IMG/VR virus record: IMGVR_UViG_3300042539_001740 | Strand: one strand, 5' to 3' | DNA length: 64,000 bases | DNA from: a virus | Taxonomy: Duplodnaviria; Caudoviricetes | In this document: positions 985-40,672 of the stretch, piece after piece | Layout of the letters: each line of letters starts with the position of its first letter | How positions within the stretch are numbered: the first letter of the stretch is position 1 | Program-made: the position numbers and the translations under genes | The notes under the pieces: generated by a model | Databases searched by the model: none | Seen by the model: only the letters and a program-made list of their open reading frames with translations | What the model was told of the DNA's origin: nothing

Positions 985-3108
985 ATGTCAATCAAGGTTA
1001 AAATTTCTATTTACTTTTCAGTTTTAATTATGTCAATTTTCTTTATAATGAAGATGATTTCATTATTTTTTATAAATGACGCACTACAATTAATCAAAAT
1101 AATTGAATTATCTTGTTTTATTGTTTTTTTACCATTCTTTTCAATCTTGGTAAAAGAATATACTAATAAATTAAAACATAATATAAAATTAACACAATAC
1201 TCCAAAAAACTTAACAAAGTTCTTATATCACAATCACACAATTCATTATTTTATCAAGGAAATGTAAAGGATGGGGCAAAAACTTTAACAAAGGAAGTAA
1301 CAGAATCAATTGATGCTGATAGATGTTCAATTTGGTTATATAATTCAGATAAAACCTCAATTATCTGTCAACAACTTTATATTAAAAAAGAAGATGAATG
1401 GTATAGTGGGGCGGAAATGTATAAAAAAGATTTTATCGCCTATTTTGAACACTTAGAAATCAATCCGATTATTATTGCAAACAATGCTGAAACTCATACC
1501 GCAACATATTGTTTTGTTGAAGGGTATTTGAAACCCCTTGGTATTAAATCTATGTTGGATGTTCCAATTATGTACAGAGGCGATGTAATTGGTGTTGTGT
1601 GTATTGAGAGTAAAACATTAAGGGAATGGATTGGATTAGAAGTTAACTTTGCTCAAATGTTATCATCACTATATTCTTTTGCTTATTCGGTTAAAGAAAG
1701 TAATATTTTGAGAGGTAATTTACAAGAGTTCGAAAAGTTTGTTGATACATCTGTTTTGGTTTCTAAAGCGGACAATAAAGGTAGAATAACATATGTAAAT
1801 AAAAAGTTTGAGGAAGTATCTGGATGGTCTTTAGATGAAGTAAGAGGAAAAGACCATAGTATTGTTAATTCGGGTAAACATCCCAAGGAGTTTTGGGCTA
1901 ATATGTACAAAGATGTTGTCGTTGAGAAAAAGATTTGGAATGAGATTGTTACAAATAGGGATAAAAATGGTAACTTATATTGGGTTGATTCATATATAAA
2001 AGGTGATTTTGATGAAAATGGTAAGTTTTTGGGGTATATGTCAATCAGATATGATGTAACAGAAGTCAAGAAAAAAGAAATTGATATAAAAAATAGGATG
2101 AATGCTATTAATACATCGAATATGGTTATTGAGTTTGATTTGGATGGTAAAATTATGTTTGCTAATAGTTTATTCTGTGAAAAAATGGGTTATGAAGAAA
2201 AAGAATTAAAAGGTAAACATCATAAGATTTTTGTTTCAAAGGAATATTCAAAATCTCCTGAATATAAAGAGTTTTGGAAATTGTTAAAAAGTGGAGAATA
2301 TGTTACTGATGAGTTTTTAAGGTTTACTAAAGATAAAAACAAAGTTTGGATTCAAGCTTCATATAATCCTGTATTTGATATAGATGGTAAAGTACAAAGA
2401 GTAATGAAAATTGCAACAGATATAACTGATAGAATTACACAATCAATAGAAATTGAGAAAAAGAACACTTATTTAGAACACGCAGCAAAGATTCTAAGAC
2501 ACGATATGCACTCAGGTATTAACACATACATACCTAGGGGAGTTAGTTCATTAGAACGAAGATTAACTATTGAACAAATAGAGGAGTTAAAAATAACAGC
2601 ACCATTTAAAATGATTAAAGATGGGTTGAGCCATGCTCAAAAAGTTTATAAAGGTGTTTATGAATTTACAAACTTAGTAAAAAAAGATGTTGTATTAAAT
2701 AAAACAGAATGTAATCTAAAAAGTATTTTAGAAAGTTACTTAACAACAACCTCATACAAAAGTCAGGTTCATATCGAGGAATTAATAACTAAAGATGTGA
2801 ATGAGTCATTGTTTTGTACATCAATTGATAATCTGATAAGAAATGGTTTGAAATATAACGATTCTGATACGAAATTTGTTAAAATATTTATGGAGGGGGA
2901 TTTGTTAATAATACAAGATAATGGTAGAGGAATCACTCAACAAGATTTCGACCATTTATCAAAACCATATACAAGAAAAGAAGGACAAAAAGAGAGTGGT
3001 ACAGGATTAGGGTTAAATATTTGTGTTGCAATTTTAGAAGAACACGGATTTGAAATTACATGTGAAAAAAATGATATTGGTACTAAAATGAAAATAAACA
3101 TAAAATAA
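985..3108 (+). CDS. Sensor histidine kinase (2 TM - GAF - PAS/PAC - PAS/PAC - HisKA-like - HATPase_c)
   Basis: GAF (DADRCSIWLYN...SMLDVPI); two PAS (ITYVNKKFEEVSGW; FANSLFCEKMGY...WIQASYNPV); H-box-like ILRHDMH; N box NLIRNGLKYN; G boxes DNGRGI and GTGLGL. Confidence 0.9.
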   Translation: MSIKVKISIYFSVLIMSIFFIMKMISLFFINDALQLIKIIELSCFIVFLPFFSILVKEYTNKLKHNIKLTQYSKKLNKVLISQSHNSLFYQGNVKDGAKTLTKEVTESIDADRCSIWLYNSDKTSIICQQLYIKKEDEWYSGAEMYKKDFIAYFEHLEINPIIIANNAETHTATYCFVEGYLKPLGIKSMLDVPIMYRGDVIGVVCIESKTLREWIGLEVNFAQMLSSLYSFAYSVKESNILRGNLQEFEKFVDTSVLVSKADNKGRITYVNKKFEEVSGWSLDEVRGKDHSIVNSGKHPKEFWANMYKDVVVEKKIWNEIVTNRDKNGNLYWVDSYIKGDFDENGKFLGYMSIRYDVTEVKKKEIDIKNRMNAINTSNMVIEFDLDGKIMFANSLFCEKMGYEEKELKGKHHKIFVSKEYSKSPEYKEFWKLLKSGEYVTDEFLRFTKDKNKVWIQASYNPVFDIDGKVQRVMKIATDITDRITQSIEIEKKNTYLEHAAKILRHDMHSGINTYIPRGVSSLERRLTIEQIEELKITAPFKMIKDGLSHAQKVYKGVYEFTNLVKKDVVLNKTECNLKSILESYLTTTSYKSQVHIEELITKDVNESLFCTSIDNLIRNGLKYNDSDTKFVKIFMEGDLLIIQDNGRGITQQDFDHLSKPYTRKEGQKESGTGLGLNICVAILEEHGFEITCEKNDIGTKMKINIK

Positions 3109-5475: not shown

Positions 5476-5574
5476 GTTAAAAAGGTTTGGATTAATTTTT
5501 TATAACAAATGTTTGTGAGTAGAATTGACTACATAAAAAATAAACAATATAATTCAAACAAAAACGAACAAAAT

Positions 5575-7440
5575 ATGAGTAAAATTATTGGAATCGATTT
5601 AGGGACTACAAACTCGTGTGTAGCCGTAATGGAAAATGGAGAACCAATTGTAATAACAAACAATGAAGGTAAAAGAACAACCCCTTCAATCATTGGATTT
5701 GTTGACAATGGTGAAAGAAAGATTGGAGACCCAGCAAAAAGACAAGCTGTAACCAATCCTGACAAAACAATTTATTCAATCAAACGCTTTATGGGCTCAA
5801 ATTATGACGAAACCAAGTCAGAGGTTAAGAGAGTTCCTTATAAGGTCGTAAAAGGGAAAAACAACACCCCAAGAGTAGAGATTGATGATAAACAATTCTC
5901 ACCTCAAGAAATCTCAGCAATGGTGTTACAGAAAATGAAACAAACTGCTGAAGATTATTTGGGTCAAGAAGTAACTGAAGCCGTTATCACAGTTCCTGCT
6001 TACTTCAATGATGCTCAAAGACAAGCAACAAAAGAAGCTGGTGAGATTGCGGGTCTGAAAGTTAAGAGAATTATCAATGAACCAACTGCAGCTGCTCTTG
6101 CTTATGGTCTTGATAAGAAAAACAAGGACTCTAAAATCGTTGTTTTTGACTGTGGTGGGGGTACACACGATGTATCTGTACTAGAATTAGGTGGTGGTGT
6201 ATTTGAAGTATTATCAACCGATGGTGATACACACTTAGGTGGTGATGACTTTGACAATGCTATTTCTGATTGGTTAAAAAACGAGTTCAAAAATGAGAAC
6301 AATGGTGCTTGGAATGATGATTCTATGGCAATCCAAAGGTTAAGAGAGGCAGCTGAGAAGGCAAAAATTGAATTATCTTCATCTCAAAGTACTGAAATTA
6401 ACTTACCTTACTTTATGGTAATTGATAATCAACCAAAACACCTTGTAAAAACACTTACAAGAGCAAAGTTTGAACAAATTATTGATAAATTGGTTGAAAG
6501 AACGATTGCACCTTGTAAATCAGCTCTTAAAAACGCTGGATTGACAATTAATGACATTGATGAGGTTATTTTGGTTGGTGGTTCTACTAGAATCCCTGCA
6601 ATTCAAGAAGCAGTTAAGAAGTTTTTCGGAAAAGAAGCGTCAAAAGGTGTAAATCCTGACGAAGTTGTTGCTTTGGGTGCTGCGATTCAAGGTGGTGTAT
6701 TAGCTGGTGATGTAAAAGATGTTCTTTTATTGGATGTTACCCCACTTTCATTAGGAATTGAGACAATGGGTGGTGTAATGACAAGATTAATCGAAGCAAA
6801 TACAACAATTCCAACCAAAAAGTCACAAATCTTCTCAACTGCGGTAGATAATCAACCTTCTGTTGAAATTCACGTAATACAAGGTGAAAGACCAATGGCA
6901 AAAGACAACAGAACTATTGGTAGATTCCATTTAGATGGTATTCCACCATCAATGAGAGGTATTCCTCAAATCGAAGTTACTTTTGACATCGATGCAAATG
7001 GTATTATCAATGTTTCGGCCTTAGACAAGGGAACAAACAAACAACAAACGATTAGAATTGAGTCATCATCTGGACTTTCACAAGAAGAAATCGACAGAAT
7101 GAAGAGAGAAGCTGAGGAAAATGCTGAAAGTGATAAATTAGCTAAAGAAAAAGCTGAAAAAATCAATGAGGCTGATAGTACAATCTTTAATATTGAGAAA
7201 ACTTTGAAGGATTTGGATGAAAAAATCTCTGATGAACACAAAGAAGAAGTTAAAAAAGGTTTGGAGGAATTAAAAGAGGCTAAAAACACTGGTGAAATTG
7301 AAAAAATTGACCCTGCGTTAGATAATGTTAATTCAATTATGCAAAAAATTACCCAAGAACTTTATAGTAATGTGAGTGAACAAACTGAAAACACTGATGG
7401 TTTTACAGGTTCAGATGTAGAGTTTGAAGAAGTAAAGTAA
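5575..7440 (+). CDS. dnaK: Chaperone DnaK (Hsp70)
   Basis: [50 protein letters not shown]; likely start 5575 rather than 5509. Confidence 0.98.
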
Positions 7441-29581: not shown

Positions 29582-29854
29582 ATGAAATATTTAATTCCTT
29601 GTTTGTTTTTATTTTTTGTTTCATTTGTTTTATTAGCTTCAATTCTAAATAGAACAAACTATAATGAAATTGAAGATGGGGATATTGTTAAAAGATGTGT
29701 TATAGACACATTTTATGTTACAGAATCACCATCCACCATTGAATATGGGAAAAGATATCATTATTCAACAGATTGTGATGAGTTTGTTATAACCAAGAGA
29801 AATGATGTTTATAAGATTGGTGATACAATAACTTATGTTTATAAAAAGCGATAG
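29582..29854 (+). CDS. Hypothetical exported protein; stop codon lies inside tRNA-Gly
   Basis: N-terminal TM; TAG at 29852-29854. Confidence 0.6.
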   Translation: MKYLIPCLFLFFVSFVLLASILNRTNYNEIEDGDIVKRCVIDTFYVTESPSTIEYGKRYHYSTDCDEFVITKRNDVYKIGDTITYVYKKR

Positions 29855-29923
29855 TAGCTCAGTAGGTAGAGCATAATCTTGCCAAGATTAAAGTCGCAAG
29901 TTCGAATCTTGTCTATCGCTCCA
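29848..29923 (+). tRNA. tRNA-Gly(GCC)
   Basis: TAATC-ttGCCaa-GATTA; CCA. Confidence 0.93.
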
Positions 29924-29925
29924 TA

Positions 29926-30015
29926 AGGGACTCCCGTTTTAAGGTGAAGGACACACGGGCAGGTTATTGTAAAATAACTAAAAAACCTTAAGTCTATGGG
30001 TGGAAGTCCCTACCA
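29926..30015 (+). ncRNA. tRNA-sized RNA with acceptor-like stem and encoded ACCA end but no D/T loops
   Basis: AGGGACT/AGTCCCT-A-CCA; inner CCCGT/ACGGG, GGTTATT/AATAACT, TTAAGGT/ACCTTAA. Confidence 0.5.
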
Positions 30016-30028
30016 CCCAATTATAAAT

Positions 30029-30103
30029 GCCGGTAAAGCATAAGTGGTGATGTACTTGACTTGTAATCAAGATAATGGGGTTCGATTCCTCATACCGGCT
30101 CCA
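30029..30103 (+). tRNA. tRNA-Thr(UGU)
   Basis: CTTGA-ctTGTaa-TCAAG; CCA. Confidence 0.93.
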
Positions 30104-30120
30104 CTTTTTATTCAAATACT

Positions 30121-30351
30121 ATGGAATCACTTATGGAACAAATAAGATTGTCTCAGTTTAAGAACCTCAAAAATGGGGATAAAATCCATATCAAATCTCG
30201 TAATGGTATTTATACCTTTCTCAAAAAGGATAAATGGACAGGAGAAATCTATATAACTTGTAATAGGTGGAAATATGAAGAAAACCCTATAAGAGTTACA
30301 AGTTACAATGACTTCAAGTGTTTTGCTGGTGGTATTTGGAATCTAAGGTAA
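30121..30351 (+). CDS. Hypothetical protein
   Basis: ORF between tRNAs. Confidence 0.6.
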   Translation: MESLMEQIRLSQFKNLKNGDKIHIKSRNGIYTFLKKDKWTGEIYITCNRWKYEENPIRVTSYNDFKCFAGGIWNLR

Positions 30352-30355
30352 ATTA

Positions 30356-30426
30356 GCGGGTATAGCATAAAAGTAATGTTCTAGTCTTCCAAACTAGATA
30401 AGTTGGGGCGGTACCAACTATCCGCT
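30356..30426 (+). tRNA. tRNA-Gly(UCC), atypical T-loop GGCGGTA
   Basis: CTAGT-ctTCCaa-ACTAG; GTTGG/CCAAC T-stem. Confidence 0.85.
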
Positions 30427-31588: not shown

Positions 31589-31695
31589 AGCCAGGTGGCG
31601 GAATGGTAGACGCTATATGTTTTGGAAGGAGATAGGAATAGAACCTACCCTAAACCAGATAAAAGATTTTACAGGTTCGAATCCTGTCCTGACTA
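31589..31695 (+). tRNA. Aberrant Leu-like tRNA with greatly extended anticodon arm (loop AAUAGAA)
   Basis: Leu-type D arm GTGGCGGAATGGTAGACGC; ~50-nt arm tipped by TAGG-aaTAGaa-CCTA; 3' end identical to the 30839 RNA. Confidence 0.6.
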
Positions 31696-40250: not shown

Positions 40251-40291
40251 CAACAAACCCCTCCTAAAAAGAGGGGTTTATTTTTTTCTGC

Positions 40292-40672
40292 GGTGGAGGT
40301 ATAGGGAGTCGAACCCTTTCCTGTCCATCTTAACTATTAAGGACTACATGCTTAGGACAACATTATTCGCAGTGCTCCGAGCTATTTGATTTTAATTACT
40401 ACCAAAACCAACAAAATCAGCCAATTCATTTTTAGGGATGAGAATTAGTTAGACAACCCTTCAGTGCTCCTGTTCCTGAGTTAATGCACCCCGACTCGAA
40501 AGTAATATCCTATTGACTAGGCTACTACCGCTTCTTCAGCACGGATTAAACCTACTGCAGAAAGTTTGTTGATAACGTTGCCGTGTATCGTTTCAAACCA
40601 GTTTAACGGACTTAGTTCAGGTCCGGCATGCCCCGAATAACTAACAACGTCAGTCGATTCCAGATTACCCCC
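40292..40672 (-). ncRNA. ssrA: tmRNA; tag (A)GNVINKLSAVGLIRAEEAVVA*
   Basis: 5' GGGGGTAATCTGGAATCGAC; 3' T-arm GGTTCGACTCCC and acceptor TACCTCC-A-CC; G3:U70; tag ORF 40582-40517. Confidence 0.92.

What the first reader, a model, noticed from the sequence alone, without database searches (positions are those of the whole stretch)
29926..30019. CCA-ended non-tRNA between tRNA-Gly and tRNA-Thr
Seen: a perfect 7-bp terminal stem AGGGACT/AGTCCCT, then A-CCA, like the neighbouring tRNAs, but no GTTC loop or D loop. The loop of arm CCCGT/ACGGG holds TTAAGGT (29939-29945), complementary to ACCTTAA (29985-29991), so a pseudoknot is possible. An alternative hairpin TGGGTGG/CCACCCA would hide the CCA end. 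Inference: an aminoacylatable or RNase P-processed tRNA-like RNA, possibly a conformational switch.
Basis: partly seen in the sequence, partly recalled or inferred. Interest (0 to 1): 0.6.

Follow-up and report, generated by a model that had tools for sequence, protein, structure and literature searches.

The report
Pseudoknotted RNA family beside phage tRNA-Gly
The odd 'CCA-ended' stretch between two phage tRNA genes belongs to a previously undescribed family of small, tightly folded RNAs that large freshwater phages keep right after their glycine tRNA gene; its CCA is incidental, and its job is unknown, with tRNA-array processing or a new self-cutting RNA as the leading ideas.

Summary
A 7-bp stem plus N-CCA alone is common by chance, about 10 non-tRNA cases per strand here. 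Relatives make the element real. I found 15 distinct versions in five subgroups, all from large freshwater phage contigs. There is one copy per genome. It starts 2 nt (UA) after a tRNA-Gly and ends 3-9 nt before the next tRNA. In total 96.7% of cells pair, against 87.2% when shuffled (0/500), and 9 pairs change on both sides. The loop/downstream pseudoknot H3 is invariant, so it is untested. The CCA is not conserved (ACCA, ACCC or ACCU): 'ACC' is an invariant A plus two invariant G-C pairs of H5. H1's 3' strand is the H5 loop, so H1 and H5 probably coexist as a second pseudoknot. There is no match in Rfam 15 or ARAGORN, no similarity to T4 rnaC/rnaD, and none in cultured phages or 185,579 prokaryote genomes. 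Best reading: a new structured small RNA cut out of the tRNA transcript. A new tRNA-trailer ribozyme is a live rival. An aminoacylatable tRNA mimic is unlikely.

The parts
29848..29923 (+). tRNA-Gly(GCC), the constant upstream neighbour. Together with the element it forms a 175-nt block that is absent from the closest IMG/VR relative.
   Evidence: ARAGORN; Rfam 69.8 bits; indel against L001
29924..29925 (+). Invariant UA spacer between the tRNA-Gly CCA and the first base of the element.
   Evidence: Identical in all 15 family members, including those where the tRNA was replaced by an endonuclease ORF
29926..29932 (+). H1 5' strand (element positions 1-7), which pairs with 30005-30011.
   Evidence: Pairs 4, 5 and 6 change on both sides across subgroups; pairs 1-3 are invariant
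29933..29937 (+). H2 5' strand CCCGU (8-12), which pairs with 29955-29959.
   Evidence: Paired in 100% of cells; pair 5 is U-A in 7 and C-G in 8 sequences; RNAalifold predicts it independently
29938..29954 (+). 17-nt H2 loop. U13 is a 1-nt linker, UUAAGGU (29939-29945) is the H3 5' strand, and GAAGGACAC (29946-29954) is an invariant unpaired segment.
   Evidence: 16 of its 17 positions are identical in at least 14 of 15 sequences (the last is C in 13 and U in 2)
29955..29959 (+). H2 3' strand ACGGG (30-34).
29962..29979 (+). Peripheral hairpin H4 (37-54): 7 bp with a GUAA loop. In the other subgroups it is replaced by a longer domain that can form its own small H-type pseudoknot (H4 plus H6).
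   Evidence: Fold; long-form helices have changes on both sides (alignment)
29985..29991 (+). H3 3' strand ACCUUAA (60-66). It is preceded by conserved A's and followed by invariant GUCU + A/G (29992-29996).
   Evidence: Invariant in all 15 sequences; complementary to 29939-29945
29997..30003 (+). H5 5' strand UGGGUGG (72-78), which pairs with 30013-30019.
   Evidence: Five of seven pairs change on both sides across subgroups; the two loop-closing G-C pairs are invariant; predicted by RNAalifold
30005..30011 (+). H1 3' strand AGUCCCU (80-86). It lies inside the H5 loop, flanked by A79 and A87.
30012..30019 (+). The 'CCA' is its first three bases.
   Evidence: Position 90 is A, C or U and covaries with position 76
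30029..30103 (+). tRNA-Thr(UGU), the downstream tRNA. In every family member a tRNA starts 3-9 nt after H5.

Best explanation
The element (29926-30019, + strand) belongs to an undescribed family of ~94-109-nt structured RNAs in the tRNA arrays of large freshwater phages, several with T4-type capsid genes. It is transcribed within the tRNA polycistron and folds into a compact double pseudoknot. The 5' strand 1-20 pairs in turn with 80-86 (H1), 30-34 (H2) and 60-66 (H3). The 3' hairpin H5 (72-78/88-94) carries the H1 3' strand in its loop, so both RNA ends are clamped together. A variable peripheral domain (H4, plus H6 in long forms) projects from the core. I infer that it is released as a discrete, nuclease-resistant small RNA by the tRNA-processing machinery. 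RNase P cuts the next tRNA 3-9 nt downstream, and 3' exonucleases then stop at H5. An endonucleolytic cut at the invariant UA/A1 junction frees tRNA-Gly. That cut could come from RNase P reading the constant 7+5-bp H1-H2 stack as an acceptor/T-arm mimic, or from a single-strand endonuclease. The encoded CCA is a by-product of H5, not a charging end. Its function in trans is unknown, as for T4 RNAs C and D. Shown here: the family, helices H1, H2, H4 and H5, the strand and the synteny. Inferred: that H1 and H5 coexist, the processing route, stability, and any function.
For: The covariance model R1 and pattern scans found 15 distinct homologues in 5 subgroups. Each of the 5 record handles searched with R1 holds one copy, and two of those records are rated 100% complete (266 and 207 kb). 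Every copy lies 2 nt after a tRNA-Gly (GCC, or UCC in L058/L059/L062) and 3-9 nt before another tRNA. The core structure pairs in 96.7% of cells against 87.2% when shuffled (0/500). Nine pairs change on both sides, against at most 3 in registers slid by 1-3 columns. RNAalifold finds H2 and H5 unaided. U-G pairs in H1 (12 of 15 at pair 7) would be C-A on the other strand, so the RNA is on the tRNA strand. Loop and junction sequences are invariant while stems covary. The H5 loop's 5' linker varies from 1 to 4 nt, while its 3' linker is always one A. This fits the established rule that 1-2 nt can span the deep groove of a 6-7-bp helix (Pleij H-type pseudoknots, 6-7-nt kissing loops). No intrinsic terminator lies in or next to the element, and promoter-like sites are no more frequent than in shuffles, which fits read-through in the array. 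Precedent: T4 rnaD starts 1 nt after tRNA-Arg and rnaC follows it 6 nt later, and their functions are still unknown (PMC9697503).
Against: There is no expression or end-mapping evidence. H3 never covaries, and its only variant (U15>C in L078) breaks a pair. H1 pair 6 is mismatched in 5 of 15 sequences. If H5 stacks under H1, the 'ACC' and the cleavage site are buried, which is unlike a normal RNase P substrate. The strict link to tRNA-Gly and the invariant UA hint at a role in cis on tRNA-Gly rather than a free-standing small RNA. The element is accessory: the closest relative, 95-98% identical in the flanks, lacks it together with tRNA-Gly(GCC). Within the window-type lineage it is no better conserved than neighbouring ORFs (95.6-97.8% against 93-98%).
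Confidence: 0.42

Rival explanations
1. A new class of self-cleaving ribozyme that cuts at its own 5' edge, at or next to the invariant UA before A1, and so removes the 3' trailer of tRNA-Gly. This would be analogous in function to the HDV-like theta ribozymes next to phage tRNAs, but with a different fold.
For: The element begins 2 nt after the tRNA 3' end in every member. Theta ribozymes set the precedent of phage ribozymes whose cleavage site abuts tRNA 3' ends (PMC10879173). The size is ~100 nt, the fold is a double pseudoknot, junction nucleotides are invariant and the peripheral domain varies. If H1 stacks on H5, the 5' leader leaves at a helix-helix junction opposite the invariant A87 and above two invariant G-C pairs, which resembles P1/P1.1 of HDV ribozymes (inference). 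UA is kept even where the tRNA was lost. Without a dedicated cut, tRNA-Gly would stay fused to a very stable 3' structure (inference).
Against: No cleavage data exist. The helix order does not fit the HDV fold, and no Rfam ribozyme model matches at E<=10. The hammerhead core sequences are absent. New ribozyme classes are rare among new RNA motifs. Only one of more than 20 tRNAs per phage has the element. The element persists intact where tRNA-Gly was replaced by an endonuclease gene.
Confidence: 0.23
2. One reading: a tRNA-like RNA with a functional acceptor stem and NCCA end that is completed by the CCA-adding enzyme and possibly aminoacylated. In this view H5 is an alternative conformer that hides the end, making a conformational switch.
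For: A 7-bp H1 is followed by an invariant A and CC. H1+H2 make a constant 12-bp stack, the length of a tRNA acceptor/T stack. The element sits in a tRNA slot. Nested-only energy models put the H1 state and the H5 state within about 1-3 kcal/mol of each other in most subgroups. RNase P is known to cut pseudoknotted substrates that carry RCCA (abstract of PMC12710915).
Against: The CCA is not conserved. The third base is A, C or U and covaries with H5 position 76. H5's 3' strand extends 5 nt beyond 'CC' and is maintained by covariation, which makes little sense if it is trimmed away. There are no T- or D-loop motifs and no tRNA model hit. The first pair A1-U86 and the A 'discriminator' match no glycine identity set (established knowledge). 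The H5 loop geometry allows both helices at once, so no switch is required.
Confidence: 0.07
3. A cis-acting element of the tRNA operon without a life of its own. It could be a structured spacer that controls processing order or exonuclease access for tRNA-Gly or the next tRNA, or a ligand- or tRNA-sensing switch that uses the invariant alternative pairing of U-2..G3 with 61-65.
For: The flanking tRNAs and spacings are constant. RNAalifold finds an invariant 5-bp alternative between the UAAGG at the junction and CCUUA of the H3 3' strand. H5 ends only 3-9 nt from the next RNase P site.
Against: There is no terminator or other recognisable expression platform. The downstream tRNA differs between lineages (Thr, Gly-UCC, Tyr, Leu). 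Some 45 invariant nucleotides and up to three pseudoknot-type pairings (H3, H1/H5, H4/H6 in long forms) are far more than a spacer needs. The alternative pairing cannot be tested because it never varies.
Confidence: 0.12
4. A decaying relic, for example a degenerate tRNA gene, or passenger DNA of a mobile tRNA-Gly/homing-endonuclease cassette, with no RNA function.
For: It is present or absent together with tRNA-Gly(GCC) between near-identical phages. Endonuclease genes (HNH-like in L039, DUF559 in L078) sit at the same junction. Within the window lineage it is no more conserved than its flanks.
Against: Across subgroups whose neighbouring tRNA-Gly genes differ at about a quarter of their bases or more (75-82% identity within the window lineage; sequences), the core blocks stay identical and the stems keep pairing through changes on both sides. 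A relic would not do this.
Confidence: 0.03

Closest known systems
Phage T4 stable RNAs C and D (species 1 and 2; rnaC, rnaD)
   Same: They are small non-tRNA RNAs encoded inside a T4-type phage tRNA cluster, on the tRNA strand and directly after a tRNA. rnaD starts 1 nt after tRNA-Arg and rnaC follows 6 nt later. Their function is still unknown (PMC9697503).
   Different: There is no sequence or model similarity: R1 and R2 find nothing in the T4 region. rnaC carries a canonical T-arm sequence, whereas this family has none and is built from pseudoknots.
Theta (minimal HDV-like) ribozymes next to phage tRNA genes (Kienbeck et al. 2024, PMC10879173)
   Same: They are ~100-nt-or-smaller double-pseudoknot RNAs in phages whose 5' edge abuts the 3' end of a tRNA. 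They are proposed to process tRNA 3' trailers.
   Different: The helix order here (H1a-H2a-H3a-H2b-periphery-H3b-H5a-H1b-H5b) is not the P1-P2-P3-P1-P4-P2 order of HDV. No HDV-type Rfam hit was found. The element starts 2 nt after the CCA rather than within 1 nt. It is known only after tRNA-Gly and in freshwater rather than gut phages. Self-cleavage is untested.
Viral tRNA-like structures with a pseudoknotted acceptor arm (e.g. TYMV TLS), and other non-tRNA RNase P substrates
   Same: An acceptor-like helix is built with the help of a pseudoknot, and a 12-bp coaxial stack resembles the acceptor/T arm. RNase P can cut pseudoknotted RNAs that have RCCA (abstract of PMC12710915).
   Different: Those RNAs end in a free, conserved CCA and are charged. 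Here the CCA is not conserved and the ACC is base-paired in H5.

Membership tests
tRNA (Rfam RF00005 / ARAGORN cloverleaf) | Cloverleaf with D arm, anticodon arm and T arm (GTTC-type loop) | tested here: not met
   ARAGORN does not call it. There is no RF00005 hit at E<=10 on the window, L061 or L065 versions.
tRNA-like RNA with a functional NCCA end (TLS, tmRNA-type acceptor) | Conserved single-stranded 3' NCCA after the acceptor stem | tested here: not met
   The family has ACCA, ACCC or ACCU. The third base covaries with H5 position 76, and CC pairs with the invariant GG 77-78.
tRNA-like RNA with a functional NCCA end (TLS, tmRNA-type acceptor) | Aminoacylation or CCA addition | not testable with these tools
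   This needs biochemical assays.
T4 rnaC/rnaD-type stable RNAs | Encoded in a phage tRNA cluster directly after a tRNA, on the same strand | tested here: met
T4 rnaC/rnaD-type stable RNAs | Sequence or structure homology to rnaC or rnaD | tested here: not met
   R1 and R2 find nothing in the T4 region L037. The folds differ.
HDV-like / theta ribozymes | 5' edge (cleavage site) adjacent to a tRNA 3' end | tested here: met
   The offset from the encoded CCA is a constant 2 nt. Theta ribozymes are mostly within 1 nt.
HDV-like / theta ribozymes | Nested double pseudoknot with order P1-P2-P3/L3-P1'-P1.1-P4-J4/2(C)-P2' | tested here: not met
   The helix order from the covariation analysis differs. 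No HDV-family Rfam hit at E<=10.
HDV-like / theta ribozymes | Self-cleavage giving 2',3'-cyclic phosphate and 5'-OH | not testable with these tools
   No raw RNA reads were available. The runs that were laid are contigs only.
Other Rfam self-cleaving classes (hammerhead, twister, twister-sister, pistol, hatchet, hairpin) | Match to the family covariance model or its conserved core | tested here: not met
   No hits at E<=10. The CUGAUGA and GAAA hammerhead cores are absent from the conserved blocks.
H-type pseudoknot (H2 with H3) | A hairpin loop pairs with a downstream strand, with loop lengths that can span the grooves | tested here: inconclusive
   A 7-nt complement is present in all 15 sequences. 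Loop 1 is 1 nt across a 7-bp stem and an A-rich strand enters H3b, which fits the geometry. There is no covariation, and one variant breaks a pair.
Riboswitch / transcription attenuator | An aptamer coupled to a terminator or a ribosome-binding-site sequestering hairpin upstream of a gene | tested here: not met
   H5 has no U tract and no terminator is called in or next to the element. The downstream feature is a tRNA 3-9 nt away.

The most novel reading that the evidence does not exclude
The family is a new class of small self-cleaving ribozyme, unrelated in fold to HDV or theta ribozymes. It would cut at the invariant UA/A1 junction to release tRNA-Gly from the phage tRNA polycistron. The scissile site would sit at the H1/H5 pseudoknot junction opposite the invariant A87.
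Probability: 0.2. Interest if true: 0.9.

Novelty: new variant of a known kind. Interest (0 to 1): 0.62.

Why it matters
Non-tRNA RNAs inside phage tRNA clusters have been known since T4 RNAs C and D in the 1970s, and their function is still unexplained. This family is a second, unrelated example, and it has features that make it testable. The fold is supported by covariation. The anatomy is very constant, with an invariant junction to tRNA-Gly, both ends locked in one pseudoknot, and a peripheral domain that can be swapped. Natural variants exist with and without the tRNA. If the RNA cuts itself, it would be a new ribozyme class. It would also show that phages evolved RNA-only processing of tRNA 3' ends twice, with theta ribozymes in gut phages being the first case. 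If it is a stable small RNA, it is a compact, nuclease-resistant scaffold made by abundant lake phages, with invariant exposed segments that should point to a host or phage target. The case also carries a caution for annotation: an encoded 'acceptor stem + CCA' can arise as a side effect of a different fold.

Tried and rejected
1. The rod-like minimum-energy fold pairs CCCGU with AUGGG 71-75. Shallow variants at 71/72 seemed to support it. The partner is missing in L063/L061, and those bases belong to H5. Rejected in favour of H2 = 8-12/30-34.

2. Strict mutual exclusion of H1 and H5. I first reasoned that a 1-nt linker could not cross a 7-bp stem. Viewed as the H5 hairpin loop pairing with the free 5' end, the short 5' linker crosses the deep groove, as in H-type knots and kissing loops. 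I therefore no longer treat the two helices as exclusive. Nested energy models cannot judge this.

3. An alternative pairing of GGACU 3-7 with AGUCU 66-70 in the window is not conserved in other subgroups.

4. Homologue searches that found nothing:
- INPHARED phages by blastn.
- The window's 27 related IMG/VR loci, by blastn, nhmmer and the covariance model.
- Exact window-type words in IMG/VR.
- GTDB species genomes. One pattern gave no hits and the other gave 18 chance hits, none confirmed by the model. L082 at 18 bits is coding-like sequence.
- A block-A-only pattern gave 10 chance hits.

5. A 98-nt 'CCA-ended' candidate in L007/L014 has no similarity to the element and no tRNA-family hit. 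I treated it as chance.

6. Public runs. All are assembled contigs. One metatranscriptome contig (X18) spans 29951-30098 at a depth like that of the neighbouring ORFs. It shows no start, end or strand, so it says nothing about a discrete transcript. Its value was to reveal sequence variants, which led to the homologues.

7. Hammerhead permutations (PMC10085705): the core motifs are absent.

8. A Ro60/Y-RNA link with the DUF2828 gene at 19785-21182. The element has none of the Y-RNA stem features I know of and lies 9 kb away. Not pursued.

Full report
**The observation**

- AGGGACT (29926-29932) pairs with AGTCCCT (30005-30011), followed by A and CCA (30012-30015).
- An arm CCCGT/ACGGG (29933-29937 / 29955-29959) has a 17-nt loop holding TTAAGGT (29939-29945). 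This is complementary to ACCTTAA (29985-29991).
- TGGGTGG (29997-30003) is complementary to CCACCCA (30013-30019).
- The stretch starts 2 nt after tRNA-Gly(GCC) (29848-29923) and ends before tRNA-Thr (30029-30103).

It is not a tRNA. ARAGORN does not call it. A permissive scan of all 4227 Rfam families over 29800-30150 gives nothing in the element even at E<=10.

The stem-plus-CCA motif is weak evidence on its own. Perfect 7-bp + N + CCA arrangements occur 16 and 10 times on the two strands of the window, against 4.2 in shuffles. Only four of these are real tRNAs. The single-sequence fold is unremarkable (z = -1.5).

**Context**

The window is phage DNA at 30-33% G+C. It carries T4-type terminase, portal and Gp23 capsid genes and more than 21 tRNA genes, all on the + strand. 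No whole genome is held for it.

The closest IMG/VR relative (L001) is 95.6-98.3% identical in the flanks. It lacks precisely 29847-30021, that is tRNA-Gly(GCC) plus the element. Identical copies of the window arrangement occur in other lake metagenome contigs.

**Finding homologues**

blastn, nhmmer and a single-sequence covariance model (R1) found nothing in 27 related loci or in cultured phages.

Laying assembled contigs of public runs on the region revealed variants (A29961G and others). One variant contig has the tRNA-Gly body replaced by 481 nt while the element is kept.

A scan of JGI metagenomes for the variant word returned two contigs. Exact-protein look-ups of their neighbouring ORFs returned more. 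This gave 7 full-length window-type haplotypes.

Searching whole related phage records with R1 then found a distant copy at 47 bits, again directly after a tRNA-Gly(GCC). Its conserved blocks allowed two pattern scans of IMG/VR, which recovered 11 element-bearing contigs in all.

A block-A-only pattern and two scans of 185,579 prokaryote species genomes gave only chance hits.

**The family**

It has 15 distinct sequences in five subgroups:
- window type;
- L060;
- L063 and L061;
- L065, L064 and L058 (L058 is identical to L059 and L062);
- L078 and L079.

Each of the five phage records searched whole with R1 holds one copy, including two rated 100% complete at 266 and 207 kb. Two of these five records show a T4-type Gp23.

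**Anatomy**

Element numbering sets position 1 at window 29926. The order along the RNA is:
- invariant UA;
- H1a (1-7);
- H2a CCCGY (8-12);
- U13;
- H3a UUAAGGU (14-20);
- invariant GAAGGACAY (21-29);
- H2b RCGGG (30-34);
- C35;
- a variable peripheral domain;
- AA, then H3b ACCUUAA (60-66);
- GUCUR (67-71);
- H5a (72-78);
- a 1-4-nt linker beginning with A;
- H1b (80-86);
- invariant A87;
- H5b (88-94);
- 3-9 A/U-rich nt, then the next tRNA.

The neighbours are constant. Upstream is always a tRNA-Gly ending GCUCCA: GCC in most, and a true UCC-type gene in L058/L059/L062. There are two exceptions. In the L039-type variants an HNH-like ORF has replaced the tRNA body; these come from at least five samples. 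In L078 a DUF559 endonuclease-fold ORF sits upstream. In both, the junction ...CAUA|AGG is kept. Downstream is always a tRNA: Thr, Gly-UCC, Tyr or Leu.

**Covariation**

I counted pairs on a MAFFT alignment that had not been fitted to any structure.
- 96.7% of 390 cells form standard pairs, against 87.2% after shuffling partners (0 of 500 shuffles reach the observed value).
- Registers slid by 1-3 columns give 30-55%.
- Nine pairs change on both sides, in 41 cells; slid registers give at most 3 pairs.

By helix:
- H5: five of seven pairs change on both sides. Examples are UGGGUGG/CCACCCA, UGAUGGG/CCCAUUA, UGUAGG/CCUACA and GUGUGGG/CCCACAC. The two loop-closing G-C pairs never vary.
- H1: pairs 1-3 are invariant. 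Pair 4 is G-C or A-U. Pair 5 is A-U, G-C or U-G. Pair 6 is weak, mismatched in 5 of 15. Pair 7 is mostly U-G.
- H2: pair 5 is U-A or C-G.
- H3: invariant on both strands, so untested. Its only variant breaks a pair.

The frequent U-G pairs would be C-A on the opposite strand, which places the RNA on the tRNA strand. RNAalifold predicts H2 and H5 independently.

In the long forms the peripheral domain has two helices, H4 and H6, arranged as a small H-type pseudoknot with some changes on both sides. The window type has a plain 7-bp GUAA-capped hairpin instead.

The CCA is not a conserved end. The family has ACCA, ACCC or ACCU, and the third base covaries with position 76 of H5. 'ACC' is A87 plus the two invariant G-C pairs.

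The 3' strand of H5 runs 5 nt past 'CC' and is maintained by selection. That makes trimming to a tRNA-like end unlikely.

The 'alternative' hairpin is as well supported as the 'acceptor' stem. The H5 loop consists of a 1-4-nt 5' linker, the 7 nt of H1b and exactly one A. The established geometry of H-type pseudoknots and 6-7-nt kissing loops lets 1-2 nt span the deep groove of a 6-7-bp helix. The RNA's free 5' end can therefore pair into the H5 loop while H5 stands (inference).

The core would then be a quasi-continuous stack H5-H1-H2-H3 with both termini clamped. Nested energy models cannot evaluate this. They place the two 'states' within about 1-3 kcal/mol of each other in most subgroups, so a switch is not excluded.

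**Mechanism**

Shown: a conserved structured RNA on the tRNA strand, sitting in a tRNA slot.

Inferred: it is co-transcribed with the tRNAs. No terminator lies in or beside it, and promoter-like sites are not enriched. It is then excised. RNase P cleavage of the next tRNA leaves a 3-9-nt tail that exonucleases can remove up to H5. A cut at the UA/A1 junction must free tRNA-Gly. RNase P might make this cut by reading the constant 7+5-bp H1-H2 stack. Alternatively a single-strand endonuclease might, or the RNA itself.

I rate a host-processed stable small RNA of unknown trans function as most likely (0.42). A new self-cleaving ribozyme for the tRNA-Gly trailer comes second (0.23). Its support is the theta-ribozyme precedent (PMC10879173), the invariant junction, and the HDV-like placement of the 5' end at a helix junction above two invariant G-C pairs. 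Against it are a non-HDV helix order, the absence of any Rfam ribozyme hit and the absence of cleavage data. A cis-acting processing or switch element (0.12), the aminoacylatable tRNA mimic (0.07) and a relic (0.03) follow.

**Comparison with known systems**

In arrangement the nearest case is T4 rnaD/rnaC. They lie directly after tRNA-Arg and their function is still unknown (PMC9697503). There is no similarity to them, and rnaC has a true T arm.

In possible function the nearest case is the theta ribozymes. In mimicry of form it is the pseudoknotted viral tRNA-like structures.

The family matches nothing in Rfam 15, and I found no description of it in the papers searched. I class it as a new variant of a known kind, namely non-tRNA structured RNAs embedded in phage tRNA arrays. 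There is about a one-in-five chance that it is something categorically new, a new ribozyme class.

**Limits**

- All homologues come from exact-word scans plus model confirmation, so more divergent members were probably missed.
- The family sampled is phylogenetically narrow, and about 45 positions never vary.
- There are no expression or end data.
- H3, the coexistence of H1 and H5, and every functional statement are inferences.

Noticed in passing
window 40291-40672 (- strand): Rfam finds a full-length tmRNA (95.4 bits, E 6e-36) on the minus strand, in a gap between + strand ORFs. ARAGORN did not report it. A related phage contig (L059 1363-1749) has an ARAGORN-called tmRNA on the same strand as its tRNAs.
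   Followed up: no
window 30356-30426 and 31589-31695: Two tRNA-model hits that ARAGORN misses. One is a 71-nt tRNA-Gly(UCC)-like gene with an unusual T loop (46 bits). The other is a 107-nt hit (34 bits), presumably with a large insertion. In other subgroups a normal tRNA-Gly(UCC) directly follows the element.
   Followed up: partly
L039 2056-2466 (also L051, L052, L054, L055); L078 1986-2837 (- strand): Endonuclease-type ORFs occupy the place of the tRNA-Gly gene in front of the element. In window-type variants it is a 136-aa HNH-like protein that leaves only the first 10 nt of the tRNA. In L078 it is a 283-aa DUF559 (Vsr-fold) protein. Free-standing homing endonucleases may be driving the mosaicism of these tRNA arrays, as SegB does in T4.
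   Followed up: partly
window 29852-29854: The stop codon TAG of the 90-aa ORF 29582-29854 lies inside the first 7 nt of tRNA-Gly(GCC), so the ORF and the tRNA gene overlap.
   Followed up: no
L038 7467-7539 (- strand), L039 2591-2663: The tRNA-Thr after the element ends ...GGCTCTA in these variants, with no encoded CCA, but ...GGCTCCA in the window. Its anticodon stem differs by compensatory changes. Encoded CCA is therefore variable among these phage tRNAs.
   Followed up: no
L005 4085-4179; L059 3081-3153; L062 8120-8190; L014 8805-8878: ARAGORN reports tRNA-like genes with irregular anticodon loops in related phages: a 4-nt 'aaag' anticodon and 2-nt 'tc' or 'at' anticodons.
   Followed up: no
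window 985-3108 and 5509-7440: A PAS/GAF histidine-kinase-like ORF (707 aa) and a full-length DnaK/Hsp70 (643 aa, 858 bits) lie in the same window as the T4-type structural genes.
   Followed up: no
window 29924-29928 with 29986-29990: The invariant UAAGG at the tRNA/element junction repeats the UAAGG of the H2 loop. It can pair with the same CCUUA strand (RNAalifold). This alternative is invariant and so cannot be tested.
   Followed up: partly
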